Assembly: GCA_009914755.4 (NCBI GenBank)
Contig: CP068257.2
Coordinates: 8,192,001 to 8,256,000, forward strand
Source of the DNA: the human T2T-CHM13v2.0 reference genome, Homo sapiens
Reading direction: 5' to 3'
DNA: 64,000 nt
Position 1 is the first letter of the stretch. The number at the start of each line of letters is the position of its first letter. The position numbers were made by a program, and so were the translations under genes. The notes below the pieces were generated by a model. That model saw nothing but the letters and a program-made list of their open reading frames with translations. It was not told the DNA's origin and did no database searches. This document shows positions 1-61,520 of the stretch, one piece after another.

Positions 1-52
1 GCTTCTGTCTAGTTTTTATGTGAATATATTTCCTTTTCCACTATAGGCCGTC
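1..52. repeat. 3' end of a preceding HOR copy (partial)
   Basis: Sequence 1-52 matches the last ~52 bp preceding the phase point in every other copy (e.g. 16657-16708). Confidence 0.8.
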
Positions 53-40529: not shown

Positions 40530-43500
40530 ATGCGCTCCAAATATCCACTTGCAGATTCTACAAAAAGACTGTTTCCAAGCTGCTCAATCAAAAGAAAAGC
40601 TCAACTCTGTTAGTTGAATGAGCACATCCCAAAGAAGTTCCTCAGAGTGCTTCTATCTAGTTTTTATGTGAATATATTTGCTTTTCCACCACAGGCCACA
40701 AACCCTCCAAATATCCACTTGAAGATTCTACAAAAAGAGTGCCTCAAAAATGCGCAATCAAAACAAAGGTTCAACTCTTCGAGATGGACGCACACAACAC
40801 AAAGAAGCTTCTCAGAATGTTTCTGTCTGGTTTTTTTGTGAAGATATTTCCTTTTCCACCGTAGTCCTCAAGTCTCTCCAAATATCTACTTTCAGAATCT
40901 CCAAAAAGAGTGTTTTAAAACTGCTGTACCAAAGAAAGTTTCATGTCGGAGATATGACTGCATACAACACAGAGAACTTTCTCAAAGTGCTTCTGTTTAT
41001 TTTTCTTATGAAGATATTTCCTTTTCCACTATGGGCCACAGAGTGCTCCAAATATCCACTGGCAGATTCTACAAAAAGGGTGTTTCAAAACTGCTCAATC
41101 AATAGAAAGTTTGAAGTCTGTGAGATGAATGTACACATCACAAAGGAGTTTCTAAGAATGCTTCCATCTGAATTTTATGTGAGGATATTTCCTTTTTCAC
41201 CATAGGCCTCAGTACACTCCAAATATCCATTTACAGATAATACAAATGACTGTATCCAAACTGCTCAATCAAAAGAAAGTTCAACTCTGTATGATGAATG
41301 CACACATCACAAGGGTGTTTCTCAGAAAGATTTTGTCTAGTTTTTAGGTGAAGATATTTCTTATTTCCCCAGAGGCCTCAATGGGCTCTCAAATATTCCC
41401 TTTCATATTCTACTAAATGACTGTATCGAAGCTGCTCAATCAAAAGACGGGTTTAACAGTGTGAGACGAAAATACACCTTCCTAGGAAGTTTCTCAGAAT
41501 TCTTCTTTCTAGTTTTTTATGTGAAGATATTTCCTTTTCCACTATAGGCCTCAAAGCGTTCCAAATATCCAATTGCAGATACTACAAATAGAGCGTTTCA
41601 AAACTGCTCAATCAAAAGAAAGGTTCAACTCTGTGAGATGAATGCAGACATCAAAAAGAAGTTTCTCAGCATGCTTCCGCCTTGTTTTTATGTGAAGATA
41701 TTTCCTTTTCCACCATAGGTCTCAAAGCACTGGTAATATCCATTTGCAGATACTACAAAAAGACTGTCCCCAAACTGCTCAATAAAAAGAAAGTTTCAAC
41801 TCTAGGAGTTAAAAGCAAATATCACAAAGAAGTTTCTCAGAAACTTTCTATCTAGTTTTTATGTGAACGTATTTCTTATCACCCCATAGACCTCAATCGG
41901 CTCACAAGTATCCTTCTGCAGATTGTAAAAAACTACTGTTTCCAAACTGCTCAATCTCAGGAAAGGTTTAACTTTGTGAGATGAATGCATCCATCACAGA
42001 GAAGTTTCTCAGAATGCTTCTGTCTCGTTTCCATGTGAAGAAGATTCCTTTTCCACCATATTCCTCATGCGCTCCAAATAAACACTTGCAGATTCCGCTA
42101 AAAGAGTGTTTCAAAACTGCTCAATCAAAAGAAAGGTTCTAGTCGGTGAGATGAATGCACACATCACAAAGAGGTTTCTATGAATGCTTCTGTCTGATTT
42201 ATATTGAAGATATATCCTTTTTCACCGTAGGCCTCAGAGTGCTTAAAATATCCATTTGCAGATAGTAGAAAAGACGGTTTCCAAACTGCTCAATCAAAGT
42301 AAAGTTCAACTCAGTGAGATGAATGCACACATCACCAAGACGTTTCTGAGAAAGATTCTGTCTCGTTTTTATGTGAAGATATTTCCTGTTTCCCCAGAGG
42401 CATCAATGAGCTCACAAATATTCCTTTGCATATTCTACAAAATGACTGTTTAGAAGGTGCTCAATCAAAAAAAAAGTTCAACAGTGTGAGATGAATGCGC
42501 CCATTCAAAGGAAGTTTCTCAGAATTCTTCTATCTAGTTTTTATGTGAAGATATTTCCTTTTTCACTATAGGCCACAAAGTGCTCCAAATATCCACTTGC
42601 AGACTCTACAAAACGAGTGTATCCACACTGCTCAATCAAAAGAAAATTTCAACTGTGTGAGATGAATGCACACATCAAAATAAATTTCTCCAAAACTTCT
42701 GCCTACTTTTTATGGGAAGATATTTCGTTTTTCAACGTAGGCCAAAAGCACTCCAAATATCAATTTGCAGATTCTACAAAAAGACTGTTTCCAAACTGCT
42801 CAATCAACAGAAAGTTTCAACCCAGTGAGTAGAAGTCACACATGACAAAATAGTTTCTCAGAAAGTATCTGTCTAGTTTTTATGTGAAGATATTTCCTAT
42901 CACCCCAGAAGCCTCAATGGGCTCACAAATATTCCTTTGCAGATTCTACAAAACGACAGTTTCAAAACTGCTGAATCAAAAGAAAGGTTCAACTCTGTGA
43001 GATGAATGCACAGATCACAAATAAGTTTCTCAGAATGCTGCTGTCTAGTTTTTATGGGAAGAGATTTCCTTTTCCACCATAGGCCTCAAAGCTCTCCAAA
43101 TAGCCATTTGCAGATACTGTAAAAAGACTGTTTCCAAACTGCTGAATCAAAAGAAAGGTTGAACTCCATGAGTTGAATGCACACGTCACAAAGAAGTTTC
43201 TCAGAATGCTTCTGACTAGTTTTTATGTGAAGATATTTTCTTTTCCACCATAGGCCTCAAAGCGCTGAAAATATCCACTTGAAGATTCTACAGAAAGAGA
43301 GTTTCAAAACTGCTCAAACAAAAGAAAGATTCAACTCTGTGAGATGAATGCACACATCACAAAGAAGTTTCTCAGAATGCTTCTGTCTAGTTTTATGTAA
43401 AGATATTTCCTTTTCTACTCTAGGCCACAAAGCACTCCAAATATCAACTTGCAGATTCTGCAGAAAGAGTTTTTCAAAGCTGCTCAATCAAAAGAAAAGT

Positions 43501-44444
43501 TCAACACTTTGAGATGAATGCACACATCATGAAGTTCCTCAGAATGCTTCTATTTTTATGTGAAGATATATCCTTTTCTACCATAGACCACAAAACGCTC
43601 CAAATATCCCCTTGCAGTTTCTACTAAAAGAGTGTTTCCAAACGGCTCAATCAAAAGAAAGTTTCAACTCTGTGAGATGAATGCACACATCATTAAGAAG
43701 TTTCTCAGTAATTTTCTGTCTAGTTTTTATGTGAAGATATTTCCTTTCCTACTATAGGCCTGAAAGTGCTGCAAATATCCGTTTGCAGATACTGCAAAAA
43801 GACTGTTTCCACACTGCTCAATCAAAGGAAATGTCCAACTCTGTGAGTTGAATGCATGCATCTCAAAGAGATTACTTATAATGATTCTGACTAGTTTTGA
43901 TGTGAAGATATTTGCTTTTCCACCAGTGGCCTCAAACTCTCCAAATATCCACTTGCAGATTCTACAATAAGAGTGTTTCAAAACTGCTCAATCAAAAGAA
44001 AGGTTCAACACTGTGAGATGAATGCACACGTCACAAAGCACTTTCTTAAAATGCTTCTGTCTAGCTTTTATGTGAAGATATTTCCTTTTTCACCATAGGC
44101 TGCAAAGCGCTCCAAATATCCCTTTCAGATTCTACAGAAAGAGAGTTTCAAAACTGTTCAATCAAAAGAGAAACTCAACTCTGGTGATGAATGCACGCAT
44201 CACAAAGCAGTTTCTCATAATATTTCTGTCTAGTTTTTATGTGAAGATATTTCATTCTCCACTATAGGCCGTAATGCACTCCTAATATCCACTTGCAGAT
44301 TCTACAAAAAGACTGTTTGCAAACTGCTCAAACAAAAGAAAAGTTCAACTCTGTGAGTTGAATGAGCACATCACAAAGAAGTTTCTCAGAATGCTTCTGT
44401 CTAGTTTTTATGTGAATATATTTCCTTTTCCACTATAGGCCGTC
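40530..44444. repeat. HOR copy 11, 23-mer, 3915 bp, haplotype III with additional private SNVs
   Basis: Phase 'atg' located at 40530. Several private substitutions (e.g. 'ccaagctgctc', 'tgttagttgaatg', 'caaaacaaagg') fuse two spurious ORFs. Confidence 0.85.
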
Positions 44445-47400
44445 ATGCGCTCCAAATATCCACTTGCAGATTCTACAAAAAGACTGTTTCCAAACTGCTC
44501 AGTCAAAAGAAAAGCTCAAATCTGTGAGTTGAATGAGCACATCCCAAAGAAGTTCTTCAGAATGCTTCTATCTAGTTTTTATGTGAATATATTTGCTTTT
44601 CCACCACAGGCCACAAACCCTCCAAATATCCACTTGAAGATTCTACAAAAAGAGTGCTTCAAAAATGCGCAATCAAAAGAAAGGTTCAACTCTTCGAGAT
44701 GGACGCACACATCACAAAGAAGCTTCCCAGAATGTTTCTGTCTAGTTTTATTGTGAAGATATTTCCTTTTCCACCGTAGTCCTCAAGTCTCTCCAAATAT
44801 CTACTTTCAGAATCTCCAAAAAGAGTGTTTTAAAACTGCTGTACCAAAGAAAGTTTCATGTCTGAGATATGACTGCATACAACACAGAGAACTTTCTCAA
44901 AGTGCTTCTGTTTATTTTTCTTATGAAGATATTTCCTTTTCCACTATGGGCCACAGAGTGCTCCAAATATCCACTGGCAGATTCTACAAAAAGGGTGTTT
45001 CAAAACTGCTCAATCAATAGAAAGTTTGAAGTCTGTGAGATGAATGTACACATCACAAAGGAGTTTCTAAGAATGCTTCCATCTGAATTTTATGTGAGGA
45101 TATTTCCTTTTTCACCATAGGCCTCAGTACACTCCAAATATCCATTTACAGATAATACAAATGACTGTATCCAAACTGCTCAATCAAAAGAAAGTTCAAC
45201 TCTGTATGATGAATGCACACATCACAAGGGTGTTTCTCAGAAAGATTTTGTCTAGTTTTTAGGTGAAGATATTTCTTATTTCCCCAGAGGCCTCAATGGG
45301 CTCTCAAATATTCCCTTTCATATTCTACTAAATGACTGTATCGAAGCTGCTCAATCAAAAGACGGGTTTAACAGTGTGAGACGAAAATACACCTTCCTAG
45401 GAAGTTTCTCAGAATTCTTCTTTCTAGTTTTTTATGTGAAGATATTTCCTTTTCCACTATAGGCCTCAAAGCGTTCCAAATATCCACTTGCAGATACTAC
45501 AAATAGAGCGTTTCAAAACTGCTCAATCAAAAGAAAGGTTCAACTCTGTGAGATGAATGCAGACATCAAAAAAACTTTCTCAGAATGCTTCCGCCTTGTT
45601 TTTATGTGAAGATATTTCCTTTTTCACCATAGGCCTCAAAGCACTGGTAATATCCATTTGCAGATACTACAAAAAGACTGTTCCCAAACTGCTCAATAAA
45701 AAGAAATTTTCAACTCTATGAGATAAAAGCTAATATCACAAAGAAGTTTCTCAGAAACTTTCTATCTAGTTTTTATGTGAACATATTTCTTATCACCCCA
45801 TAGACCTCAATCGGCTCACAAGTATCCTTCTGCAGATTGTAAAAAACTACTGTTTCCAAACCGCTCAATCACAGGAAAGGTTTAACTCTGTGAAATGAAT
45901 GCATCCATCACAGAGAAGTTTCTCAGAATGCTTCCGTCTCGTTTTCATGTGAAGAAGATTCCTTTTCCACCATATTCCTCATGCGCTCCAAATAAACACT
46001 TGCAGATTCCGCTAAAAGAGTGTTTCAAAACTGCTCAATCAAAAGAAAGGTTCTAGTCGGTGAGATGAATGCACACATCCCAAAGAAGTTTCTATGAATG
46101 CTTCTGTCTGATTTATATTGAAGATATTTCCTTTTTCACCGTAGGCCTCAGAGTGCTTAAAATATCCATTTGCAGATACTAGAAAAGACTGTTTCCAAAC
46201 TGCTCAATCAAAGTAAAGTTCAACTCAGTGAGATGAATGCACACATCACCAAGACGTCTCTGAGAAAGATTCTGTCTCGTTTTTATGTGAAGATATTTCC
46301 TGTTTCCCCAGAGGCATCAATGGGCTCACAAATATTCCTTTGCATATTCTACAAAATGACTGTTTAGAAGGTGCTCAATCAAAAAAAAAGTTCAACAGTG
46401 TGAGATGAATGCGCCCATTCAAAGGAAGTTTCTCAGAATTCTTCTATCTAGTTTTTATGTGAAGATATTTCCTTTTTCACTATAGGCCACAAAGTGCTCC
46501 AAATATCCACTTGCAGACTCTACAAAACGAGTGTATCCACACTGCACAATCAAAAGAATATTTCAACTGTGTGAGATGAATGCACACATCTAAATAAATT
46601 TCTCCAAAACTTCTGCCTACTTTTTATGGGAAGATATTTCGTTTTTCAACGTAGGCCAAAAGCACTCCAAATATCAATTTGCAGATTCTACAAAAAGACT
46701 GTTTCCAAACTGCTCAATCAAGAGAAAGTTTCAACCCAGTGAGTAGAAGTCACACATGACAAAATAGTTTCTCAGAAAGTATCTGTCTAGTTTTTATGTG
46801 AAGATATTTCCTATCACCCCAGAAGCCTCAATGGTCTCACAAATATTCCTTTGCAGATTCTACAAAACGACAGTTTCAAAACTGCTGAATCAAAAGAAAG
46901 GTTCAACTCTGTGAGATTAATGCACAGATCACAAATAAGTTTCTCAGAATGCTGCTGTCTAGTTTTTATCGGAAGAGATTTCCTTTTCCACCATAGGCCT
47001 CAAAGCTCTCCAAATAGCCATTTGCAGATACTGTAAAAAGACTGTTTCCAAACTGCTGAATCAAAAGAAAGGTTGAACTCCATGAGTTGAATGCACACGT
47101 CACAAAGAAGTTTCTCAGAATGCTTCTGACTAGTTTTTATGTGAAGATATTTTCTTTTCCACCGTAGGCCTCAAAGCGCTGAAAATATCCACTTGAAGAT
47201 TCTACCAAAAGAGAGTTTCAAAACTGCTCAAACAAAAGAAAGATTGAACTCTGTGAGATGAATGCACACATCACAAAGAAGTTTCTCAGAATGCTTCTGT
47301 CTAGTTTTATGTAAAGATATTTCCTTTTCTACTATAGGCCACAAAGCACTCCAAATATCAACTTGCAGATTCTGCAGAAAGAGTTTTTCAAAGCTGCTCA

Positions 47401-48356
47401 ATCAAAAGAAAAGTTCAACTCTTTGAGATGAATGCACACATCATGAAGTTCCTCAGAATGCTTCTATTTTTATGTGAAGATATATCCTTTTCTACCATAG
47501 ACCACAAAACGCTCCAAATATCCCCTTGCAGTTTCTACTAAAAGAGTGTTTCCAAACGGCTCAATCAAAAGAAGTTTCAACTCTGTGAGATGAATGCACA
47601 CATCATTAAGAAGTTTCTCAGTAATTTTCTGTCTAGTTTTTATGTGAAGATATTTCCTTTCCTACTATAGGCCTGAAAGTGCTCCAAATATCCGTTAGCA
47701 GATACTGCAAAAAGACTGTTTCCAAACTGCTCAATCAAAGGAAATGTCCAACTCTGTGAGTTGAATGCACGCATCTCAAAGAGATTACTTATAATGATTC
47801 TGTCTAGTTTTGATGTGAAGATATTTGCTTTTCCACCAGTGGCCTCAAACTCTCCAAATATCCACTTGCAGATTCTACAATAAGAGTGTTTCAAAACTGC
47901 TCAATCAAAAGAAAGGTTCAACACTGTGAGATGAATGCACACGTCACAAAGCACTTTCTTAGAATGCTTCTGTCTAGCTTATATGTGAAGATATTTCTTT
48001 TTCACCATAGGCTGCAAAGCGCTCCAAATATCCCTTTCAGATTCTACAGAAAGAGTGTTTCAAAACTGTTCAATCAAAAGAGAAATTCAACTCTGGTGAT
48101 GAATGCACGCATCACAAAGCAGTTTCTCATAATGTTTCTGTCTAGTTTTTATGTGAAGATATTTCATTTTCCACTATAGGCCGTAATGCACTCCTAATAT
48201 CCACTTGCAGATTCTACAGAAAGACTGTTTGCAAACTGCTCAAACAAAAGAAAAGTTCAACTCTGTGAGTTGAATGAGCACATCACAAAGAAGTTTCTCA
48301 GAATGCTTCTGTCTAGTTTTTATGTGAATATATTTCCTTTTCTACTACAGGCCGTA
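44445..48356. repeat. HOR copy 12, 23-mer, ~3912 bp, divergent haplotype III derivative
   Basis: 3912-bp period with multiple private SNVs or small indels relative to copies 7-10. Confidence 0.8.
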
Positions 48357-51300
48357 ATGCGCTCCAAATATCCACCTGCAGATTCTACAAAAAGACAGTT
48401 TCCAAACTGCTCAATCAAAAGAAAAGTTCAACTCTGTGAGTTGAATGAGCACATCACAAAGAAGTTTCTCAGAATGCTTCTATCTAGTTTTTATGTGAAT
48501 ATATTTCCTTTTCCACCACAGGCCAAAAACACTCCAAATATCCACTTGAAGATTCTACAAAAAGAGTGCTTCAAAAATGCTCAATCAAAAGAAAGGTTCA
48601 ACTCTTTGAGATGGATGCACACATCACAAAGAAGCTTCTCAGAATGTTCCTGTCTAGTTTTTTTGTGAAGATATTTCCTTTTCCACCGTAGTCCTCAAGT
48701 CTCTCCAAATATCTACTTTCAGAATCTCCAAAAAGAGTGTTTTAAAACTGCTGTACCAAAGACATTTTCATGTCTGAGATATGACTGCATACAACACAGA
48801 GAAGTTTCTCAAAGTGCTTCTGTTTATTTTTTTTATGAAGATATTTCCTTTTCCACTATTGGCCACAGAGCGCTCCAAATATCCACTGGCAGATTCTACA
48901 AAAAGAGTGTTTCAAAACTGCTCAATCAATAGAAAGTTTGAAGTCTGTGAGATGAATGCACACATCACAAAGGAGTTTCTAAGAATGCTTCCATCTGAAT
49001 TTTATGTGAGGATATTTCCTTTTTCACCATAGGCCTCAATACACTCCAAATATCCATTTACAGATAATACAAATGACTGTATCCAAACTGCTCAATCAAA
49101 AGAAAGTTCAACTGTGTATGATGAATGCACACATCACAAGGGTGTTTCTCAGAAAGTTTTTGCCTAGCTTTTAGGTGAAGATATTTCTTATTTCCCCAGA
49201 GGTCTCAATGGGCTCTCAAATATTCCCTTTCATATTCTACTAAATGACTGTATCGAAGCTGCTCAATCAAAAGACGGGTTTAACACTGTGAGACGAAAAT
49301 ACACCTTCCTAGGAAGTTTCTCAGAATTCTTCTTTCTAGTTTTTTATGTGAAGATATTTCCTTTTCCACTATAGGCCTCAAAGCGTTCCAAATATCCACT
49401 TGCAGAAACTACAAATAGAGCGTTTCAGAACTGCTCAATCAAAAGAAAGGTTCAACTCTGTGAGATGAATGCAGACATCAAAAAGAAGTTTCTCAGAATG
49501 CTTCTGCCTTGTTTTTATGTGAAGATATTTCCTTTTTCACCATAGGCCTCAAAGCACTGGTAATATCCATTTGCAGATACTACAAAAAGACTGTTCCCAA
49601 ACTGCTCAATAAAAAGAAAGTTTCAACTCTATGAGATAAAAGCAAATATCACAAAGAAGTTTCTCAGAAACTTTCTATCTAGTTTTTATGTGAACATATT
49701 TCTTATCACCCCATAGACCTCAATCGGCTCACAAGTATCCTTCTGCAGATTGTAAAAAACTACTGTTTCCAAACCGCTCAATCACAGGAAAGGTTTAACT
49801 CTGTGAAATGAATGCATCCATCACAGAGAAGTTTCTCAGAATGCTTCCGTCTCGTTTTTATGTGAAGAAGATTCCTTTTCCACCATATTCCTCATGCGCT
49901 CCAAAGAAACACTTGCAGATTCCGCTAAAAGAGTGTTTCAAAACTGCTCAATCAAAAGACAGGTTCTAGTCGGTGAGATGAATGCACACATCACAAAGAC
50001 GTTTCTATGAATGCTTCTGTCTGATTTATATTGAAGATATTTCCTTTTTCACCGTAGGCCTCAGAGTGCTTAAAATATCCATTTGCAGATACTAGAAAAG
50101 ACTGTTTCCAAACTGCTCAATCAAAATAAAGTTCAACTCAGTGAGATGAATGCACACATCACCAAGACGATTCTGACAAAGATTCTGTCTCGTTTTTATG
50201 TGAAGATATTTCCTGTTTCCCCAGAGGCATCAATGGGCTCACAAATATTCCTTTGCATATTCTACAAAATGACTGTTTAGAAGGTGCTGAATCAAAAAAA
50301 AAGTTCAACAGTGTGAGATGAATGCGCCCATTCAACGGAAGTTTCTCAGAATTCTTCTATCTAGTTTTTATGTGAAGATATTTCCTTTTTCACTATAGGC
50401 CAGAAAGTGCTCCAAATATCCACTTGCAGACTCTACAAAACGAGTGTATCCACACTGCTCAATCAAAAGAAAATTTCAACTGTGTGAGATGAATGCACAC
50501 ATCAAAATAAATTTCTCCAAAACTTCTGCCTACTTTTTATGGGAAGATATTTCGTTTTTCAACGTAGGCCAGAAGCACTCCAAATATCAATTTGCAGATT
50601 CTACAAAAAGACTGTTTCCAAACTGCTCAATCAAGAGAAAGTTTCAACCTGGTGAGTAGAAGTCACACATGACAAAATAGTTTCTCAGAAAGTATCTGTC
50701 TAGTTTTTATGTGAAGATATTTCCTATCACCCCAGAAGCCTCAATGGGCTCACAAATATTCCTTTGCAGATTCTACAAAACGACAGTTTCAAAACTGCTG
50801 AATCAAAAGAAAGGTTCAACTCTGTGAGATGAATGCACAGATCACAAATAAGTTTCTCAGAATGCTGCTGTCTAGTTTTTATGGGAAGATATTTCCTTTC
50901 CCACCATAGGCCTCAAAGCTCTCCAAATAGCCATTTGCAGATACTGTAAAAAGACTGTTTCCAAACTGCTGTATCAAAAGAAAGGTTGAACTCCATGAGT
51001 TGAATGCACACGTCACAAAGAAGTTTCTCAGAATGCTTCTGACTAGTTTTTATGTGAAGATATTTCCTTTTCCACTATAGGCCTCAAAGCGTTCCAAATA
51101 TCCACTTGCAGAAACTACAAATAGAGCGTTTCAGAACTGCTCAATCAAAAGAAAGGTTCAACTCTGTGAGATGAATGCAGACATCAAAAAGAAGTTTCTC
51201 AGAATGCTTCTGCCTTGTTTTTATGTGAAGATATTTCCTTTTTCACCATAGGCCTCAAAGCACTGGTAATATCCATTTGCAGATACTACAAAAAGACTGT

Positions 51301-53975
51301 TCCCAAACTGCTCAATAAAAAGAAAGTTTCAACTCTATGAGATAAAAGCAAATATCACAAAGAAGTTTCTCAGAAACTTTCTATCTAGTTTTTATGTGAA
51401 CATATTTCTTATCACCCCATAGACCTCAATCGGCTCACAAGTATCCTTCTGCAGATTGTAAAAAACTACTGTTTCCAAACCGCTCAATCACAGGAAAGGT
51501 TTAACTCTGTGAAATGAATGCATCCATCACAGAGAAGTTTCTCAGAATGCTTCCGTCTCGTTTTTATGTGAAGAAGATTCCTTTTCCACCATATTCCTCA
51601 TGCGCTCCAAAGAAACACTTGCAGATTCCGCTAAAAGAGTGTTTCAAAACTGCTCAATCAAAAGACAGGTTCTAGTCGGTGAGATGAATGCACACATCAC
51701 AAAGACGTTTCTATGAATGCTTCTGTCTGATTTATATTGAAGATATTTCCTTTTTCACCGTAGGCCTCAGAGTGCTTAAAATATCCATTTGCAGATACTA
51801 GAAAAGACTGTTTCCAAACTGCTCAATCAAAATAAAGTTCAACTCAGTGAGATGAATGCACACATCACCAAGACGATTCTGACAAAGATTCTGTCTCGTT
51901 TTTATGTGAAGATATTTCCTGTTTCCCCAGAGGCATCAATGGGCTCACAAATATTCCTTTGCATATTCTACAAAATGACTGTTTAGAAGGTGCTGAATCA
52001 AAAAAAAAGTTCAACAGTGTGAGATGAATGCGCCCATTCAACGGAAGTTTCTCAGAATTCTTCTATCTAGTTTTTATGTGAAGATATTTCCTTTTTCACT
52101 ATAGGCCAGAAAGTGCTCCAAATATCCACTTGCAGACTCTACAAAACGAGTGTATCCACACTGCTCAATCAAAAGAAAATTTCAACTGTGTGAGATGAAT
52201 GCACACATCAAAATAAATTTCTCCAAAACTTCTGCCTACTTTTTATGGGAAGATATTTCGTTTTTCAACGTAGGCCAGAAGCACTCCAAATATCAATTTG
52301 CAGATTCTACAAAAAGACTGTTTCCAAACTGCTCAATCAAGAGAAAGTTTCAACCTGGTGAGTAGAAGTCACACATGACAAAATAGTTTCTCAGAAAGTA
52401 TCTGTCTAGTTTTTATGTGAAGATATTTCCTATCACCCCAGAAGCCTCAATGGGCTCACAAATATTCCTTTGCAGATTCTACAAAACGACAGTTTCAAAA
52501 CTGCTGAATCAAAAGAAAGGTTCAACTCTGTGAGATGAATGCACAGATCACAAATAAGTTTCTCAGAATGCTGCTTTCTAGTTTTTATGGGAAGATATTT
52601 CCTTTCCCACCATAGGCCTCAAAGCTCTCCAAATAGCCATTTGCAGATACTGTAAAAAGACTGTTTCCAAACTGCTGTATCAAAAGAAAGGTTGAACTCC
52701 ATGAGTTGAATGCACACGTCACAAAGAAGTTTCTCAGAATGCTTCTGACTAGTTTTTATGTGAAGATATTTTCTTTTCCACAGTAGGCCTCAAAGCGCTG
52801 AAAATATCCACTTGAAGATTCTACAAATGAGAGTTTCAAAACTGCTCAAACAAAAGAAAGATTCAACTCTGTGAGATGAATGCACACATCACAAAGAAGT
52901 TTCTCAGAATGCTTCTGTCTAGTTTTATGTAAAGATATTTCCTTTTCTACTATAGGCCACAAAGCACTCCAAATATCAACTTGCAGATTCTGCAGAAAGA
53001 GTTTTTCAAAGCTGCTCAATCAAAAGAAAAGTTCAACTCTTTGAGATGAATGCACACATCAGGAAGTTCCTCAGAATGCTTCTATTTTTATGTGAAGATA
53101 TAGCCTTTTCTACCATAGACGACAAAACGCTCCAAATATCCCCTTGCAGTTTCTACTAAAAGAGTGTTTCCAAACTGCTCAATCAAAAGAAGTTTCAACT
53201 CTGTGAGATGAATGCACTCATCAATAAGAAGTTTCTCAGTAATTTTCTGTCTAGTTTTTATGTGAAGATATTTCCTTTCCTACTATAGGCCTGAAAGTGC
53301 TCCAAATATCCGTTTGCAGATACTGCAAAAAGACTGTTTCCAAACTGCTCAATCAAAGGAAATGTCCAAATCTGTGAGTTGAATGCACGCATCTCAAAGA
53401 GATTACTCATAATGATTCTGTCTAGTTTTGATGTGAAGATATTTGCTTTTCCACCAGTGGCCTCAAACTCTCCAAATATCCACTTGCAGATTCTACAATA
53501 AGAGTGTTTCAAAACTGCTCAATCAAAAGAAAGGTTCAACACTGTGAGATGAATGCACACGTCACAAAGCACTTTCTTAGAATGCTTCTGTCTAGCTTTT
53601 ATGTGAAGATATTTCCTTTTTCACCATAGGCTGCAAAGCGCTCCAAATATCCCTTTCAGATTCTACAGAAAGAGTGTTTCAAAACTGTTCAATCAAAAGA
53701 GAAACTCAACTCTGGTGATGAATGCACGCATCACAAAGCAGTTTCTCATAATGTTTCTGTCTAGTTTTTATGTGAAGATATTTCATTTTCCACTATAGGC
53801 CGTAATGCACTCCTAATATCCACTTGCAGATTCTACAGAAAGACTGTTTGCAAACTGCTCAAACAAAAGAAAAGTTCAGCTCTGTGAGTTGAATGAGCAC
53901 ATCACAAAGAAGTTTCTCAGAATGCTTCTGTCTAGTTTTTATGTGAATATATTTCCTTTTCCACTATAGGCCGTA
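48357..53975. repeat. HOR copy 13, expanded to ~5619 bp (33 monomers) by internal 10-monomer tandem duplication; edge haplotype IV
   Basis: Phase point at 48357, next at 53976. The D and E monomer ORFs occur twice, 1706 bp apart (50083/51789 and 50444/52150). Confidence 0.85.
49351..52762. repeat. Near-identical tandem duplication of a ~1.7 kb 10-monomer block within HOR copy 13 (first copy ~49351-51062, second ~51063-52762)
   Basis: After the F-region monomer (…gcttctgactagtttttatgtg), the sequence at ~51060 jumps back to the monomer normally following C ('aagatatttccttttccactataggcctcaaagcgttccaaatatccacttgcagaaactac'). The D and E ORF peptides are duplicated identically, and I noticed only one SNV between the two copies. 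Confidence 0.8.
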
Positions 53976-56900
53976 ATGCGCTCCAAATATCCACCTGCAG
54001 ATTCTACAAAAAGACCGTTTCCAAAGTGCTCAATCAAAAGAAAAGTTCAACTCTGTGAGTTGAATGAGCACATCACAAAGAAGTTTCTCACAATGCTTCT
54101 ATCTAGTTTTTATGTGAATATATTCCCTTTTCCACCACAGGCCACAAACACTCCAAATATCCACTTGAAGATTCTACAAAAAGAGTGCTTCAAAAATGCT
54201 CAATCAAAAGAAAGGTTCAACTCTTTGAGATGGATGCACACATCACAAAGAAGCTTCTCAGAATGTTCCTGTCTAGTTTTTTTGTGAAGATATTTCCTTT
54301 TCCACCGTAGTCCTCAAGTCTCTCCAAATATCTACTTTCAGCATCTCCAAAAAGAGTGTTTTAAAACTGCTGTACCAAAGAAAGTTTCGTGTCTGAGATA
54401 TGACTGCATACAACACAGAGAAGTTTCTCAAAGTGCTTCTGTTTATTTTTTTTATGAAGATATTTCCTTTTCCACTATGGGCCACAGAGCGCTCCAAATA
54501 TTCACTGGCAGATTCTACAAAAAGAGTGTTTCAAAACTGCTCAATCAATAGAAAGTTTGAAGTCTGTGAGATGAATGCACACATCACAAAGGAGTTTCTA
54601 AGAATGCTTCCATCTGAATTTTATGTGAGGATATTTCCTTTTTCACCATAGGCCTCAATACACTCCAAATATCCATTTACAGATAATACAAATGACTGTA
54701 TCCAAACTGCTCAATCAAAAGAAAGTTCAACTGTGTATGATGAATGCACACATCACAAGGGTGTTTCTCAGAAAGTTTTTGTCTAGCTTTTAGGTGAAGA
54801 TATTTCTTATTTCCCCAGAGGTCTCAATGGGCTCTCAAATATTCCCTTTCATATTCTACTAAATGACTGTATCGAAGCTGCTCAATCAAAAGACGGGTTT
54901 AACAGTGTGAGACGAAAATACACCTTCCTAGGAAGTTTCTCAGAATTCTTCTGTCTAGTTTTTTATGTGAAGATATTTCCTTTTCCACTATAGGCCTCAA
55001 AGCGTTCCAAATATCCACTTGCAGATACTACAAATAGAGCGTTTCAAAACTGCTCAATCAAAAGAAAGGTTCAACTCTGTGAGATGAATGCAGACATCAA
55101 AAAGAAGTTTCTCAGAATGCTTCTGCCTTGTTTTTATGTGAAGATATTTCCTTTTTCACCATAGGCCTCAAAGCACTGGTAATATCCATTTGGAGATACT
55201 ACAAAAAGACTGTTCCCAAACTGCTCAATAAAAAGAAAGTTTCAACTCTATGAGATAAAAGCAAATATCACAAAGAAGTTTCTCAGAAAATTTCTATCTA
55301 GTTTTTATGTGAACATATTTCTTATCACCCCATAGACCTCAATCGGCTCACAAGTATCCTTCTGCAGATTGTAAAAAACTACTGTTTCCAAACCGCTCAA
55401 TCACAGGAAAGGTTTAACTCTGTGAAATGAATGCATCCATCACAGAGAAGTTTCTAAGAATGCTTCCGTCTCGTTTTTATGTGAAGAAGATTCCTTTTCC
55501 ACCATATTCCTCATGCGCTCCAAAGAAACACTTGCAGATTCCGCTAAAAGAGTGTTTCAAAACTGCTCAATCAAAAGAAAGGTTCTAGTCGGTGAGATGA
55601 ATGCACACATCACAAAGACGTTTCTATGAATGCTTCTGTCTGATTTATATTGAAGATATTTCCTTTTTCACCGTAGGCCTCAGAGTGCTTAAAATATCCA
55701 TTTGCAGATACTAGAAAAGACTGTTTCCAAACTGCTCAATCAAAATAAAGTTCAACTCAGTGAGATGAATGCACACATCACCAAGACGTTTCTGAGAAAG
55801 ATTCTGTCTCGTTTTTATGTGAAGATATTTCCTGTTTCCCCAGAGGCATCAATGGGCTCACAAATATTCCTTTGCATATTCTACAAAATGACTGTTTAGA
55901 AGGTGCTCAATCAAAAAAAAAGTTCAACAGTGTGAGATGAATGCGCCCATTCAACGGAAGTTTCTCAGAATTCTTCTATCTAGTTTTTATGTGAAGATAT
56001 TTCCTTTTTCACTATAGGCCACAAAGTGCTCCAAATATCCACTTGCAGACTCTACAAAACGAGTGTATCCACACTGCTCAATCAAAAGAAAATTTCAACT
56101 GTGTGAGATGAATGCACACATCAAAATAAATTTCTCCAAAACTTCTGCCTACTTTTTATGGGAAGATATTTCGTTTTTCAACGTAGGCCAAAAGCACTCC
56201 AAATATCAATTTGCAGATTCTACAAAAAGACTGTTTCCAAACTGCTCAATCAAGAGAAAGTTTCAACCTGGTGAGTAGAAGTCACACATGACAAAATAGT
56301 TTCTCAGAAAGTATCTGTCTAGTTTTTATGTGAAGATATTTCCTATCACCCCAGAAGCCTCAATGGGCTCACAAATATTCCTTTGCAGATTCTACAAAAC
56401 GACAGTTTCAAAACTGCTGAATCAAAAGAAAGGTTCAACTCTGTGAGATGAATGCACAGATCACAAATAAGTTTCTCAAAATGCTGCTGTCTAGTTTTTA
56501 TGGGAAGATATTTCCTTTCCCACCATAGGCCTCAAAGCTCTCCAAATAGCCATTTGCAGATACTGTAAAAAGACTGTTTCCAAACTGCTGTATCAAAAGA
56601 AAGGTTGAACTCCATGAGTTGAATGCACACGTCACAAAGAAGTTTCTCAGAATGCTTCTGACTAGTTTTTATGTGAAGATATTTTCTTTTCCACAGTAGG
56701 CCTCAAAGCGCTGAAAATATCCACTTGAAGATTCTACAAATGAGAGTTTCAAAACTGCTCAAACAAAAGAAAGATTCAACTCTGTGAGATGAATGCACAC
56801 ATCACAAAGAAGTTTCTCAGAATGCTTCTGTCTAGTTTTATGTAAAGATATTTCCTTTTCTACTATAGGCCACAAAGCACTCCAAATATCAACTTGCAGA

Positions 56901-57888
56901 TTCTGCAGAAAGAGTTTTTCAAAGCTGCTCAATCAAAAGAAAAGTTCAACTCTTTGAGATGAATGTACACATCAGGAAGTTCCTCAGAATGCTTCTATTT
57001 TTATGTGAAGATATAGCCTTTTCTACCATAGACCACAAAACGCTCCAAATATCCCCTTGCAGTTTCTACTAAAAGAGTGTTTCCAAACTGCTCAATCAAA
57101 AGAAGTTTCAACTCTGTGAGATGAATGCACTCATCAATAAGAAGTTTTTCAGTAATTTTCTGTCTAGTTTTTATGTGAAGATATTTCCTTTCCTACTATA
57201 GGCCTGAAAGTGCTCCAAATATCCGTTTGCAGATACTGCAAAAAGACTGTTTCCAAACTGCTCAATCAAAGGAAATGTCCAACTCTGTGAGTTGAATGCA
57301 CGCATCTCAAAGAGATTACTCATAATGATTCTGTCTAGTTTTGATGTGAAGATATTTGCTTTTCCACCAGTGGCCTCAAACTCTCCAAATATCCACTTGC
57401 AGATTCTACAATAAGAGTGTTTCAAAACTGCTCAATCAAAAGAAAGGTTCAACACTGTGAGATGAATGCACACGTCACAAAGCACTTTCTTAGAATGCTT
57501 CTGTCTAGCTTTTATTTGAAGATATTTCCTTTTTCACCATAGGCTGCAAAGCGCTCCAAATATCCCTTTCAGATTCTACAGAGAGAGTGTTTCAAAACTG
57601 TTCAATCAAAAGAGAAATTCAACTCTGGTGATGAATGCACGCATCACAGAGCAGTTTCTCATAATGTTTCTGTCTATTTTTTATGTGAAGTTATTTCATT
57701 TTCCACTATAGGCCGTAATGCACTCCTAATATCCACTTGCAGATTCTACAAAAAGACTGTTTGCAAACTGCTCAAACAAAAGAAAAGTTCAACTCTGTGA
57801 GTTGAATGAGCACATCACAAAGAAGTTTCTCAGAATGCTTCTGTCTAGTTTTTATGTGAATATATTTCCTTTTCCACTATAGGCCGTA
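53976..57888. repeat. HOR copy 14, 23-mer, 3913 bp, edge haplotype IV
   Basis: 3913-bp period; shares 'ccacctgcag', 'caaacactcc', 'gagatggatgcac' variants with copies 2, 13 and 16. Confidence 0.85.
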
Positions 57889-57984
57889 ATGTGCTCCAAA
57901 TATCCACCTGCAGATTCTACAAAAAGACTGTTTCCAAAGTGCTCAATCAAAAGAAAAGTTCAACTCTGTGAGATGAATGAGCAC

Positions 57985-58000
57985 ATCACAAAGAAGCTTC
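57985..58000. other. In-register deletion junction removing one ~170-bp monomer (fusion of HOR monomers 1 and 2)
   Basis: Before the junction the sequence follows monomer 1 (…gagcacatcacaaagaag). It then continues as monomer 2 (cttctcagaatgtttctgtctagtttttttgtg…). Compare copy 14 at 54060-54260. Confidence 0.7.
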
Positions 58001-60539
58001 TCAGAATGTTTCTGTCTAGTTTTTTTGTGGAGATATTTCCTTTTCCACCGTAGTCCTCAAGTCTCTCCAAATACCTACTTTCAGAATCTCCAAAAAGAGT
58101 GTTTTAAAACTGCTGTACCAAAGAAAGTTTCATGTCTGAGTTATGACTGCATACAACACAGAGAAGTTTCTCAAAGTGCTTCTGTTTATTTTTTTTATGA
58201 AGATATTTCCTTTTCCACTATTGGCCACAGAGCGCTCCAAATATCCACTGGCAGATTCTACAAAAAGAGTGTTTCAAAACTGCTCAATCAATAGAAAGTT
58301 TGAAGTCTGTGAGATGAATGCACACATCACAAAGGAGTTTCTAAGAATGCTTCCATCTGAATTTTATGTGAGGATATTTCCTTTTTCACCATAGGCCTCA
58401 GTACACTCCAAATATCCATTTACAGATAATACAAATGACTGTATCCAAACTGCTCAATCAAAAGAAAGTTCAACTGTGTATGATGAATGCACAAATCACA
58501 ATGGTGTTTCTCAGAAAGTTTTTGTCTAGTTTTTAGGTGAAGATATTTCTTATTTCCCCAGAGGCCTCAATGGGCTCTCAAATATTCCCTTTCATATTCT
58601 ACTAAATGACTGTATCGAAGCTGCTCAATCAAAAGACGGGTTTAACAGTGTGAGACGAAAATACACCTTCCTAGGATGTTTCTCAGAATTCTTCTTTCTA
58701 GTTTTTTATGTGAAGATATTTCCTTTTCCACTATAGGCCTCAAAGCGTTCCAAATATCCACTTGCAGATACTACAAATAGAGCGTTTCAAAACTGCTCAA
58801 TCAAAAGAAAGGTTCAACTCTGCGAGATGAATGCAGACATCAAAAAGAAGTTTCTCAGAATGCTTCTGCCTTGTTTTTATGTGAAGATATTTCCTTTTTC
58901 AAAATAGGCCTCAAAGCACTGGTAATATCCATTTGCAGATACTACAAAAAGACTGTTCCCAAACTGCTCAATAAAAAGAAAGTTTCAACTCTAGCAGATA
59001 AAAGCAAATATCACAAAGAAGTTTCTCAGAAACTTTCTATCTATTTTTTATGTGAACATATTTCTTATCACCCCATAGACCTCAATCGGCTCACAAGTAT
59101 CCTTCTGTAGATTATGAAAAACTACTGTTTCCAAACCGCTCAATCACAGGAAAGGTTTAACTCTGTGAAATGAATGCATCCATCACAGAGAAGTTTCTCA
59201 GAATGCTTCCGTCTCGTTTTTATGTGAAGAAGATTCCTTTTCCACCATATTCCTCATGCGCTCCAAATAAACACTTGCAGATTCCGCTAAAAGAGTGTTT
59301 CAAAACTGCTCAATCAAAAGAAAGGTTCTAGTCGGTGAGATGAATGTACACATCCCAAAGAAGTTTCTATGAATGCTTCTGTCTGATTTATATTGAAGAT
59401 ATTTCCTTTTTCACCGTAGGCCTCAGAGTGCTTAAAATATCCATTTGCAGATACTAGAAAAGACTGTTTCCAAACTGCTCAATCAAAATAAAGTTCAACT
59501 CAGTGAGATGAATGCACACATCACCAAGACGTTTCTGAGAAAGATTCTGTCTCGTTTTTATGTGAAGATATTTCCTGTTTCCCCAGAGGCATCAATGGGC
59601 TCACAAATATTCCTTTGCATATTCTACAAAATGACTGTTTAGAAGGTGCTCAATCAAAAAAAAAGTTCAACAGTGTGAGATGAATGCGCCCATTCAAAGG
59701 AAGTTTCTCAGAATTCTTCTATCTAGTTTTTATGTGAAGATATTTCCTTTTTCACTATAGGCCACAAAGTGCTCCAAATATCCACTTGCAGACTCTGCAA
59801 AACGAGTGTATCCACACTGCTCAATCAAAAGAAAATTTCAACTGTGTGAGATGAATGCACACATCAAAATAAATTTCTCCAAAACTTCTGCCTACTTTTT
59901 ATGGGAAGATATTTCGTTTTTCAACGTAGGCCAAAAGCACTCCAAATATCAATTTGCAGATTCTACAAAAAGACTGTTTCCAAACTGCTCAATCAAGAGA
60001 AAGTTTCAACCCGGTGAGTAGAAGTCACACATGACAAAATAGTTTCTCAGAAAGTATCTGTCTAGTTTTTATGTGAAGATATTTCCTATCACCCCAGAAG
60101 CCTCAATGGGCTCACAAATATTCCTTTGCAGATTCTACAAAACGACAGTTTCAAAACTGCTGAATCAAGAGAAAGGTTCAACTCTGTGAGATGAATGCGC
60201 AGATCACAAATAAGTTTCTCAGAATGCTGCTGTCTAGTTTTTATGGGAAGATATTTCCTTTTCCACCATAGGCCTCAAAGCTCTCCAAATATCCATCTGC
60301 AGATACTGTAAAAAGACTGTTTCCAAACTGCTGAATCAAAAGAAAGGTTGAACTCCATGAGTTGAATGCACACGTCACAAAGAAGTTTCTCAGAATGCTT
60401 CTGACTAGTTTTTATGTGTAGATATTTTCTTTTCCACCATAGGCCTCAAAGCGCTGAAAATATCCACTTGAAGATTCTACAGAAAGAGAGTTTCAAAACT
60501 GGTCAAACAAAAGAATGATTCAACTCTGTGAGATGAATG

Positions 60540-60555
60540 CACACTTCACAAAGCA
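60540..60555. other. In-register deletion junction removing ~672 bp (4 monomers, including the dimer unit and the following two monomers)
   Basis: '…gatgaatgcacacttcacaaag' joins directly to 'cactttcttagaatgcttctgtctagcttttat', which normally lies 4 monomers downstream (compare 56790-57500). Confidence 0.7.
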
Positions 60556-60959
60556 CTTTCTTAGAATGCTTCTGTCTAGCTTTTATTTGAAGATATTTCC
60601 TTTTTCACCATAGGCTGCAAAGCACTCCAAATATCCCTTTCAGATTCTACAGAGAGAGTGTTTCAAAACTGTTCAATCAAAAGAGAAATTCAACTCTGGT
60701 GATGAATGCACGCATCACAGAGCAGTTTCTCATAATGTTTCTGTCTATTTTTTATGTGAAGTTATTTCATTTTCCACTATAGGCCGTAATGCACTCCTAA
60801 TATCCACTTGCAGATTCTACAAAAAGACTGTTTGCAAACTGCTCAAACAAAAGAAAAGTTCAACTCTGTGAGTTGAATGAGCACATCACAAAGAAGTTTC
60901 TCAGAATGCTTCTGTCTAGTTTTTATGTGAATATATTTCCTTTTCCACTATAGGCCGTA

Positions 60960-61520
60960 ATGCGCTCCAAATATCCACCTGCAGATTCTACAAAAAGACT
61001 GTTTCCAAACTGCTCAATCAAAAGAAAAGTTCAACTCTGTGAGATGAATGAGCACATCACAAAGAAGTTTCTCAGAATGCTTCTATCTAGTTTTTATGTG
61101 AATATATTTCCTTTTCCACCACAGGCCACAAACACTCCAAATATCCACTTGAAGATTCTACAAAAAGAGTGCTTCAAAAATGCTCAATCAAAAGAAAGGT
61201 TCAACTCTTTGAGATGGATGCACACATCACAAAGAAGCTTCTCAGAATGTTTCTGTCTAGTTTTTTTGTGAAGATATTTCCTTTTCCACCGTAGTCCTCA
61301 AGTCTCTCCAAATATCTACTTTCAGAATCTCCAAAAAGAGTGTTTTAAAACTGCTGTACCAAAGAAAGTTTCATGTCTGAGATATGACTGCATACAACAC
61401 AGAGAAGTTTCTCAAAGTGCTTCTGTTTATTTTTTTTATGAAGATATTTCCTTTTCCACTATGGGCCACAGAGCGCTCCAAATATCCACTTGCAGATTCT
61501 ACAAAAAGAGTGTTTCAAAC
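60960..61520. repeat. HOR copy 16 (partial, first ~3.3 monomers) ending at array boundary
   Basis: Matches the first ~560 bp of the HOR unit, then homology to the HOR is lost at ~61515-61525. Confidence 0.8.

What the first reader, a model, noticed from the sequence alone, without database searches (positions are those of the whole stretch)
49351..52762. Very recent ~1.7 kb (10-monomer) tandem duplication inside a single HOR copy
Two 10-monomer blocks lie back to back. I found a single difference between them (ctgctgtctag vs ctgctttctag), and the spurious ORF peptides at 50083/51789 and 50444/52150 are identical. The junction lies in the shared 'tagtttttatgtgaagatatttcc' monomer-boundary sequence, as expected for out-of-register unequal exchange between monomers 6 and 16 of the HOR. 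Because the two blocks are near-identical, this is either a very young structural variant or a potential assembly artefact.
Basis: seen in the sequence. Interest (0 to 1): 0.5.

Follow-up and report, generated by a model that had tools for sequence, protein, structure and literature searches.

The report
Ten-monomer duplication in alpha-satellite repeat
One copy of a 23-monomer alpha-satellite repeat on the short arm of human chromosome 21 carries a back-to-back, almost identical 1.7-kb (10-monomer) repeat; it is real but ordinary, and this exact structure is already described in the T2T-CHM13 reference genome.

Summary
Window 49341-51065 equals 51047-52771 apart from one base (50870 G vs 52576 T). 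The period is 1706 bp, which is 10 alpha-satellite monomers. Other copies of the same block typically differ by about 28 sites.

The window is a CENP-B-box-free 23/25-monomer higher-order repeat (HOR) array. Published consensus monomers tile it in order. Three published copy-start coordinates give one identical offset, placing it at T2T-CHM13 chr21:8,192,171-8,256,170. A 2025 paper already lists this block as a "variant HOR copy lacking t10-t22".

The junction is a clean single switch inside a 19-bp identity tract (TTTTTATGTGAAGATATTT), in register with the monomer. That is the signature of out-of-register homologous exchange, so this is an ordinary HOR structural variant.

"Very recent" holds only in relative terms. 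One difference in 1.7 kb allows roughly 4 kyr to 3 Myr. Several other 2-4.6 kb repeat pairs in the window have the same mismatch density.

A 13-monomer deletion across two freshly duplicated 23-mers gives the same monomer order, and this sequence cannot exclude it.

An assembly artefact is unlikely but cannot be tested without reads. Interest is low.

The parts
1..61436 (-). Alpha-satellite 23/25-monomer HOR array. The canonical alphoid orientation is on the minus strand. Copy order in the window: 23, 4x25, 7x23, 33, 23, 22, then a truncated copy.
   Evidence: TRF period 171 across the whole window. Autocorrelation peaks at 3915 bp. Monomer string. Published t1-t23 consensus monomers tile the window in order. 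Published coordinates fit with one offset. No CENP-B boxes.
48323..53941 (.). The single 33-monomer HOR copy (5619 bp = 23 + 10 monomers) that contains the duplication.
   Evidence: Monomer table. The 5619-bp spacing equals the published 8,237,753 -> 8,243,372 spacing.
49341..51046 (.). Block 1 of the duplicated unit: monomers G-P (published t23 + t1-t9), 1706 bp.
51047..52752 (.). Block 2 of the duplicated unit, 1706 bp, identical to block 1 except for one base.
51047..51065 (.). Novel P>G junction. This 19-bp crossover interval (TTTTTATGTGAAGATATTT) is identical in both parental junctions. All P-type informative sites lie to its left and all G-type sites to its right, with 0 conflicts.
   Evidence: Three-way alignment of the recombinant against the P>Q and F>G parents. 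The 51-mer across the junction is unique in the window at 0 mismatches.
49341..49359 (.). Parental F>G copy of the 19-bp tract, at the left edge of the duplication.
52753..52771 (.). Parental P>Q copy of the 19-bp tract, at the right edge of the duplication.
52576..52576 (.). The only difference between the blocks: T, the derived state, in block 2. The partner position 50870 has G, as do the homologous sites of all other HOR copies.
   Evidence: Private sites: 0 in block 1 and 1 in block 2.
61437..64000 (-). Divergent monomeric alpha satellite flanking the array. It shows no HOR periodicity, and its monomers differ from one another by 12-27%.

Best explanation

The array is an inactive, CENP-B-box-free 23/25-monomer HOR on the short arm of human chromosome 21, about 2.7 Mb from the 11-mer array at 10.96-11.30 Mb that the 2025 paper calls the major HOR array. 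One 23-monomer copy became a 33-monomer copy by tandem duplication of ten whole monomers (G-P, equal to published t23 + t1-t9; 1706 bp).

Inferred mechanism: two copies of the same HOR unit paired out of register by ten monomers. The partners could be sister chromatids or homologues, or one strand during replication template switching. A single exchange occurred inside a 19-bp tract that is identical at the P/Q and F/G monomer boundaries. The result is a hybrid but normal-length monomer at the new P>G junction.

Since then one G>T substitution has arisen in the second block. No function is expected. The event is one step in the normal unequal-exchange turnover of satellite arrays.

Shown here: the structure, the junction, the polarity of the single difference, and the identity of the locus. 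Inferred: the molecular pathway, and that the event was a duplication rather than a deletion.
For: There is 1 mismatch in 1725 bp at a shift of 1706 bp. The monomer order ...F[G-P][G-P]Q... occurs in only one of 16 copies.

The recombinant switches once from P-type to G-type with 0 conflicting informative sites, within a 19-bp identity tract and in monomer register.

The other three structural variants in the window are the RS duplication, the loss of B and the loss of RSTU. They show the same in-register pattern with 15-30 bp identity tracts, so this is the array's usual mode of change.

The two blocks are each other's closest relatives. They share 7 derived sites found in no other copy, and have 0 and 1 private sites. 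The next HOR copy is their sister, with 6 sites shared by the three and 12-13 differences from each block. A single event in one copy explains all of this.

Among the 14 other adjacent pairs of HOR copies, only one is as similar (0 differences) over the same block. That makes the two-step deletion route less likely.

Locus identity: the published consensus monomers tile the window. Three published copy starts give the identical offset of 8,192,170, and the array start and end fit within 1 bp. The published description of the variant copies (lacking t10-t22, t18, and t11-14 plus t20-23) matches the window's monomer string exactly.

The review literature states that all HORs have structural variants explained by whole-monomer indels with roughly 171-bp hybrid monomers.
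Against: The monomer order alone does not separate a 10-monomer duplication from a 13-monomer deletion between two adjacent near-identical 23-mers. Near-identical adjacent copies do exist in this array: 0 and 2 differences per 1706 bp.

Two papers report the hg38 version of this array as 440 monomers with 11 complete copies. By my count CHM13 has 427 monomers and 10 full 23-monomer copies. A single 13-monomer indel could explain that difference. The two papers used different algorithms and array boundaries, so this is only a lead.

No independent read or haplotype evidence for the junction could be obtained.
Confidence: 0.63

Rival explanations
1. A 13-monomer deletion instead of a 10-monomer duplication. 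The HOR copy first duplicated as a whole 23-mer, the commonest event in such arrays. An out-of-register exchange between the P/Q boundary of the first copy and the F/G boundary of the second then removed Q..F (13 monomers, about 2209 bp). That leaves F[G-P][G-P]Q. The mechanism and the 19-bp junction are the same; only the register differs.
For: It produces the same monomer order and junction.

Recently duplicated whole HOR units are common in the window, for example 4.6 kb with 3 mismatches and 3.9 kb with 2 mismatches. Adjacent copies with 0-2 differences per 1706 bp exist.

The published alignment scheme itself treats the block as a copy 'lacking t10-t22'.

The hg38 array is reported as 13 monomers (2,244 bp) longer, with one more complete copy than my count for CHM13.
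Against: It needs two events within the time that allowed only one substitution in 1.7 kb.

In the part of the array around the variant, adjacent copies differ by 13-32 sites per 1706 bp, so they are not near-identical.

The hg38 numbers come from a different algorithm with different boundaries and a different row count (20 vs 19). They fit equally well with 'no duplication plus one extra 23-mer elsewhere'.
Confidence: 0.22
2. An older 10-monomer duplication whose two copies have been kept almost identical by gene conversion. In that case the low divergence does not date the event.
For: The window shows mosaic identity between non-adjacent copies. For example, the C-F blocks at 360, 17016, 21264 and 33008 are identical while neighbouring segments differ. 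This is compatible with conversion operating in the array.
Against: Identity runs without a break over the whole 1706-bp unit, right up to both edges, with no patchwork.

The other internal duplication (RS in the 25-mers) has diverged by 4.5% without being homogenised.
Confidence: 0.07
3. Assembly artefact: a false tandem duplication introduced when the repeat graph was resolved. The true sequence would then be a plain 23-mer.
For: Near-identical tandem blocks in satellites are a classic place for assembly errors. No read data were available here.
Against: The window coincides base-for-base in spacing with T2T-CHM13 chr21. From established knowledge, that assembly comes from an effectively haploid cell line and was validated with long reads that are much longer than the 3.4-kb structure.

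The flanking HOR copies differ by 1-2% and give unique anchors.

The two blocks differ by a derived base. A haploid genome with only one block could not supply both alleles, unless the T is a consensus error.

The junction looks like a normal in-register recombinant, as do the older, amplified variants in the same array.
Confidence: 0.04

Closest known systems
The 23/25mer HOR array of T2T-CHM13 chromosome 21 (8,180,952-8,253,585) described by Gluncic et al. 2025 (PMC12385485)
   Same: It is the same locus. The consensus monomers t1-t23 tile the window. The copy order from the fourth copy onward is the same: 23, 4x25, 6x23, then 5 variants. Published coordinates fit with a single offset. Their 'second variant copy lacking t10-t22', and the 'period 33' between the copies starting at 8,237,753 and 8,243,372, are this 10-monomer block.
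   Different: The paper records the block only as a truncated row in an alignment scheme. It discusses a '13-monomer subsequence' repeated at period 33. It does not report the near-identity (1 difference in 1706 bp), the 19-bp junction, the polarity of the difference, or the duplication-versus-deletion question.
HOR structural variants (StVs) of alpha satellite, e.g. the 13-, 14- and 15-mer variants of the 16-mer D17Z1, as reviewed by Miga & Alexandrov 2021 (PMC9549924)
   Same: Gain or loss of whole monomers within a HOR. The junction monomer is a hybrid of normal length. The origin is attributed to unequal crossover or conversion between misaligned monomers (Smith 1976 model, cited there).
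   Different: This variant is a singleton in a small inactive array on an acrocentric short arm. It is not an amplified variant in an active centromere, so it has no known bearing on kinetochore position.
The RS (t11-t12) duplication that defines the 25-mer variant of the same array
   Same: It is also an internal, in-register tandem duplication of whole monomers in the same HOR. Its junction lies in a 27-30 bp identity tract.
   Different: It is old and amplified. Its two RS copies differ by 15/333 (4.5%), and the 25-mer unit occurs 4 times in the window and 6 times in the array. The G-P duplication is about 75-fold less diverged and occurs once.
The '33mer HOR' reported in hg38 chromosome 21 by Gluncic et al. 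2019 (PMC6718397)
   Same: A repeat length of about 33 monomers on chromosome 21.
   Different: It is a different entity. The hg38 33mer has 33 distinct monomer types, a 5639-bp unit and four copies about 5% diverged, and it sits in a centromere-model contig at 10.86 Mb. Here there is a single 5619-bp copy built from 23 monomer types. The 2025 paper states that no 33mer HOR exists in CHM13. The two sequences were not aligned here.

Membership tests
Alpha-satellite higher-order repeat array | Tandem monomers of about 171 bp | tested here: met
   TRF period 171 over 1-64000. There are 376 monomers of 163-173 bp.
Alpha-satellite higher-order repeat array | Higher-order periodicity: monomers within a unit are diverged, and units are nearly identical to one another | tested here: met
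   The autocorrelation peak is at 3915 bp, equal to 23 monomers. There are 23 monomer types in fixed order. Units differ by 0-2.3% over the G-P block, whereas unrelated monomers differ by more than 10%.
T2T-CHM13 chr21 23/25mer HOR array (Gluncic 2025) | Sequence match to the published t1-t23 consensus, in order | tested here: met
   All 23 reverse-complemented consensus monomers align consecutively. Scores are 150-171 of about 170, and t6 matches 171/171. The lower scores reflect characters lost when the PDF was converted to text.
T2T-CHM13 chr21 23/25mer HOR array (Gluncic 2025) | Same copy order and same base-pair spacing as the published coordinates | tested here: met
   The offset is 8,192,170 for each of three published copy starts. 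The array start and end agree within 1 bp. The pattern of variant copies is identical.
Suprachromosomal family SF4+ / clone family pTRA-1 (D21Z3) | Monomer classes of SF4+; identity to the pTRA-1 clone or the GJ211961 reference model | not testable with these tools
   No SF classifier or clone sequence was available. The indirect evidence is limited. The 88,022-bp acrocentric model GJ211961.2 is classed SF4+, and it has the same length as the hg38 '23mer' array, one of two 23mers that the 2019 paper links to pTRA-1/D21Z3. The absence of CENP-B boxes is consistent with this.
HOR structural variant made by out-of-register homologous exchange | Gain or loss of an integer number of monomers | tested here: met
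   1706 bp equals exactly the monomers G-P (10 monomers).
HOR structural variant made by out-of-register homologous exchange | Junction in monomer register, with a single parental switch inside a tract of shared identity | tested here: met
   There are 0 conflicting informative sites, and the interval is 19 bp at 51047-51065. The junction monomers keep their normal length of 171 bp.
HOR structural variant made by out-of-register homologous exchange | Junction present in the underlying reads or in other haplotypes | not testable with these tools
   No human reads or assemblies are available. The 19 metagenome contigs carrying this HOR are collapsed to about one unit and are uninformative. Four exact-peptide look-ups found nothing.
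Assembly artefact (false duplication) | Copies indistinguishable, with no copy-specific variant | tested here: not met
   There is one difference. The T at 52576 is derived relative to all other HOR copies.
Assembly artefact (false duplication) | Abnormal read depth, or no reads spanning the structure | not testable with these tools
   No read data are available.
hg38 '33mer HOR' (Gluncic 2019) | 33 distinct monomer types repeated as a unit of 5639 bp in several copies | tested here: not met
   There is a single 5619-bp copy, made of 23 monomer types with ten repeated. No direct sequence alignment to the 33mer consensus was made.

The most novel reading that the evidence does not exclude
The 33-monomer copy is a young, still-polymorphic human variant. 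Together with the several other repeat pairs of similar mismatch density (about 6e-4) in the same 60 kb, it would record a recent burst of exchange in an inactive SF4+ array on an acrocentric short arm. That would support the idea that acrocentric short arms have their own active recombination and homogenisation machinery, independent of kinetochore function. The P>G junction would then also be a chromosome-21p haplotype marker.
Probability: 0.15. Interest if true: 0.3.

Novelty: already known. Interest (0 to 1): 0.1.

Why it matters
It matters little on its own. Whole-monomer duplications and deletions in alpha-satellite HORs have been known since the 1980s. This particular block is already in the T2T-CHM13 reference and in a published monomer map.

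Three modest points remain.

(1) It is a clean, datable example of a single out-of-register exchange, with a 19-bp crossover tract, in an inactive acrocentric array.

(2) The junction 51-mer could serve as a marker to genotype chr21p haplotypes. Its genome-wide uniqueness must be checked first.

(3) The duplication-versus-deletion ambiguity is a general caution when reading HOR variants from monomer order alone.

Tried and rejected
(1) I searched public collections for independent copies of the novel junction. A 50-mer specific to monomer G found 19 human-derived contigs in metagenome assemblies. Bacterial and archaeal genomes gave none. All 19 contigs are short-read assemblies collapsed to about one HOR unit. 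They contain F>G and P>Q junctions but no P>G. Four contigs seemed to end at monomer P, but base-level inspection showed they run on into Q-type or array-edge sequence. These results neither support nor contradict the junction.

(2) I made exact-peptide look-ups of four spurious ORFs in public assemblies. Three of the four are private to the duplicated copy. Nothing was on record. The only ORFs spanning the junction are 20-26 aa, below the tool's 30-residue minimum.

(3) I tried to find the official T2T HOR name (S4C...) or D21Z3 details by text search. It returned only irrelevant hits.

(4) My first clustering labelled a separate monomer type 'W' in the last three copies. This is a threshold artefact. 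Those monomers differ from the canonical t16 by only 2-3 sites.

(5) I considered equating the feature with the hg38 '33mer HOR' and rejected it. The unit length, copy number, monomer content and location all differ.

(6) Chance similarity is rejected: 1 difference against a background median of about 28.
Full report
OBSERVATION. The whole 64-kb window is alpha satellite. Tandem Repeats Finder reports a 171-bp period from 1 to 64000. The exact extent is 49341-51065 against 51047-52771, 1725 bp. The one difference is at 50870 (G) against 52576 (T). The unit is therefore 1706 bp (49341-51046 and 51047-52752), followed by a third copy of its first 19 bp. Its single difference, its identical ORF pairs and its junction motif are all correct.

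WHAT THE ARRAY IS. Anchoring on a conserved 15-mer cuts the window into 376 monomers. Clustering them gives a fixed order of 23 monomer types (A...W, 3914-3915 bp), in agreement with the autocorrelation peak at 3915 bp. The copy order in the window is as follows:
- one 23-mer;
- four 25-mers, with monomers R and S duplicated;
- seven 23-mers;
- one 33-mer, with G-P duplicated (the finding);
- one 23-mer;
- one 22-mer lacking B;
- a last copy lacking RSTU, which ends after C at about 61.4 kb.
After that come divergent monomers with no higher-order periodicity. No CENP-B box exists on either strand, even allowing three mismatches.

WHERE IT COMES FROM. A literature search found a 2025 paper on the T2T-CHM13 chromosome 21 assembly (PMC12385485). 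It describes a 23/25mer array at 8,180,952-8,253,585 with the copy order 23, 2x25, 23, 4x25, 6x23, followed by five variant copies. The second, fourth and fifth of these lack t10-t22, t18, and t11-t14 plus t20-t23. The window shows exactly this pattern from the fourth copy onward.

The paper's 23 consensus monomers, reverse-complemented, align consecutively along the window. This gives G = t23, H-P = t1-t9, Q = t10 and R,S = t11,t12. Three published copy starts (8,233,839; 8,237,753; 8,243,372) map to window positions 41669, 45583 and 51202 with the same offset of 8,192,170. The published array start and end fit within 1 bp.

The window therefore corresponds to T2T-CHM13 chr21:8,192,171-8,256,170, and the finding to about chr21:8,241,511-8,244,941. 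The array lies on the short arm, about 2.7 Mb from the 11-mer array at 10.96-11.30 Mb that the paper calls the major HOR array.

A similar 'reverse 23mer' array is reported in hg38 at chr21:7,970,290. The acrocentric 88,022-bp reference model has the same length as the other hg38 23mer array and is classed SF4+. The 2019 paper links one of the two 23mers to pTRA-1/D21Z3. I could not test these family assignments directly.

Nineteen human-derived contigs in metagenome assemblies carry the same HOR at up to 99.1% identity. The family is therefore present in independent human samples.

ANATOMY OF THE JUNCTION. I aligned the novel P>G junction with its two parental junctions, P>Q on the right and F>G on the left. 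Every informative site to the left is P-type and every one to the right is G-type, with no conflicts. The switch lies in a 19-bp tract, TTTTTATGTGAAGATATTT (51047-51065), that is identical in both parents. The junction is in register with the 171-bp monomer, and the junction monomers keep their normal length.

The other structural variants in the window behave the same way. The RS duplication (27-30 bp tract), the loss of B (15 bp) and the loss of RSTU (28 bp) are all in register. Their breakpoints cluster in a different conserved part of the monomer. This is the classic signature of homologous exchange between misaligned monomers. It matches the reviewed description of HOR structural variants as whole-monomer indels with hybrid monomers of about 171 bp.

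AGE. The single difference is a derived T in block 2. Block 1 and the homologous sites of all other HOR copies have G. In an alignment of all 16 G-P blocks, the two blocks share 7 derived sites seen nowhere else. Block 1 has 0 private sites and block 2 has 1. Six more derived sites are shared only with the next HOR copy, which differs from each block by 12-13 sites. The tree is therefore ((block 1, block 2), next copy). The split between the blocks is roughly 7% as old as this copy's separation from its sister.

In absolute terms, one substitution in 1725 bp corresponds to about 0.58 Myr (95% Poisson range 0.015-3.2 Myr) at 0.5e-9 per bp per year. If the rate is raised 4.1-fold it is about 0.14 Myr (0.004-0.79 Myr). 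That factor is the upper end reported for pericentromeric flanks.

So 'recent' is justified relative to the array. The typical inter-copy distance is about 28 sites per 1706 bp, and the internal RS duplication has diverged by 4.5%. 'Very young' is not established.

The duplication is also not exceptional in this window. At least a dozen other pairs of 1.5-4.6 kb have no more than 3 mismatches. Examples are 13749-18375 vs 17997-22623 (3 in 4627), 25964-29877 vs 33794-37707 (2 in 3914) and 1-3717 vs 20905-24621 (3 in 3717). Their mismatch densities are about the same.

DUPLICATION OR DELETION. The order F[G-P][G-P]Q can arise in two ways by the same exchange between a P/Q and an F/G boundary.

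In the first route, the partners are the same HOR copy misaligned by 10 monomers. This gives a 10-monomer duplication in one event.

In the second route, the partners are two adjacent copies misaligned by 13 monomers. This gives a 13-monomer deletion, and it requires the two copies to have been near-identical. That means a whole-unit duplication shortly before, so two events in all.

The sequence cannot separate the two routes, because the diagnostic segment would have been deleted. I favour the duplication for three reasons:
- It needs one event.
- Adjacent copies in this part of the array differ by 13-32 sites per 1706 bp.
- Only 1 of the 14 other adjacent pairs is as similar.

Against this, whole-unit duplications are frequent here. 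In addition, the hg38 array is reported as 440 monomers, 74,877 bp and 11 complete copies. CHM13 has 72,634 bp, and by my count 427 monomers and 10 full-length 23-mers. That difference of 13 monomers and one complete copy could be explained by a single 13-monomer indel. The two papers used different algorithms, boundaries and row counts, so I treat this only as a lead. My estimates are 0.63 for the duplication and 0.22 for the deletion.

ARTEFACT OR CONVERSION. I could not examine reads, and four points argue against an assembly artefact:
- The window matches T2T-CHM13.
- The flanks differ from neighbouring copies by 1-2% and anchor long reads.
- The two blocks differ by a derived base, which a haploid genome with only one block could not supply.
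- The junction looks like the older, amplified variants in the same array.
I give the artefact 0.04.

An older duplication kept identical by gene conversion is possible, since mosaic identity between distant copies exists. It is not favoured, because the identity is uninterrupted up to both edges and the RS duplication has diverged freely. I give it 0.07.

COMPARISON WITH WHAT IS KNOWN. The kind of feature is textbook: a HOR structural variant made by unequal exchange (Smith 1976 model, and D17Z1 variants as reviewed). This instance is already in the public reference. It appears in a published monomer map as a 'variant copy lacking t10-t22' that produces a weak 'period 33' signal. That paper does not note the near-identity, the junction or the duplication/deletion question. 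The hg38 '33mer HOR' of 2019 is a different object.

VERDICT. The novelty rating is 'already known', and interest is low (0.1). The most novel reading still open is a recent burst of exchange in an inactive acrocentric array, with the junction usable as a chr21p haplotype marker. I give it about 0.15 probability and modest interest.

Noticed in passing
window 4777-22623: There are four consecutive 25-monomer copies carrying an internal duplication of monomers R,S (published t11-t12). The S>R junctions lie at 7100-7126, 11347-11373, 15594-15623 and 19842-19871, within 27-30 bp identity tracts. The two RS copies inside each unit differ by 15/333 (4.5%). This is an old internal duplication that was later amplified as a 25-mer unit.
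   Followed up: yes
window 57982-57996 and 60526-60553: There are two whole-monomer deletions near the distal end of the array: loss of B (a 22-mer) and loss of RSTU. Both are in monomer register, within 15-bp and 28-bp identity tracts. Their breakpoints fall in a different conserved part of the monomer (...CTGTGAGATGAATGCACACATCACAAAGAAG...) from that of the G-P duplication.
   Followed up: yes
window 1-3717 vs 20905-24621; 25964-29877 vs 33794-37707; 22857-26288 vs 34602-38033: Long near-identical stretches (2-3 mismatches in 3.4-3.9 kb) occur between non-adjacent HOR copies 2 to 5 units apart. There is also mosaic sharing: the C-F blocks at 360, 17016, 21264 and 33008 are identical while neighbouring segments differ. 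This suggests multi-unit segmental duplications and/or gene conversion within the array.
   Followed up: partly
window 61437-64000: The HOR array ends after monomer C at about 61414-61436, matching the published end at 8,253,585. It gives way to monomeric alpha satellite in the same orientation. These monomers are 12-27% diverged from one another and 10-20% from any HOR monomer.
   Followed up: partly
whole window: No CENP-B box was found on either strand, neither the core motif nor the 17-mer with up to 3 mismatches. This is consistent with an inactive array of an old family (SF4+ type).
   Followed up: yes
loci L001, L006, L008, L009, L015, L019 (metagenome contigs): Human-derived contigs in metagenome assemblies carry this HOR flanked by monomeric alpha satellite, but with array edges different from those in the window: monomeric>R... 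on the left and ...Q>monomeric on the right. In the window the array ends after C, and in CHM13 it starts at t1 (H). These contigs may come from paralogous arrays of the same family on other acrocentric chromosomes, or they may be assembly collapses.
   Followed up: no
literature vs window (hg38 chr21:7,970,290 array): The hg38 version of the array is reported as 440 monomers, 74,877 bp and 11 complete copies. CHM13 has about 427 monomers, 72,634 bp and 10 full 23-mers. The difference of about 13 monomers and one complete copy may mean that the 33-mer region differs between these two human haplotypes.
   Followed up: no
window 49005-49346 and 54624-54965: The 2025 paper says t21-t22 are replaced by new monomer types t24-t25 in the variant copies. 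In the window these monomers (E, F) differ from the canonical ones by only 4-7 and 2-3 sites. The 'new types' are therefore minor sequence variants and not different monomers.
   Followed up: partly
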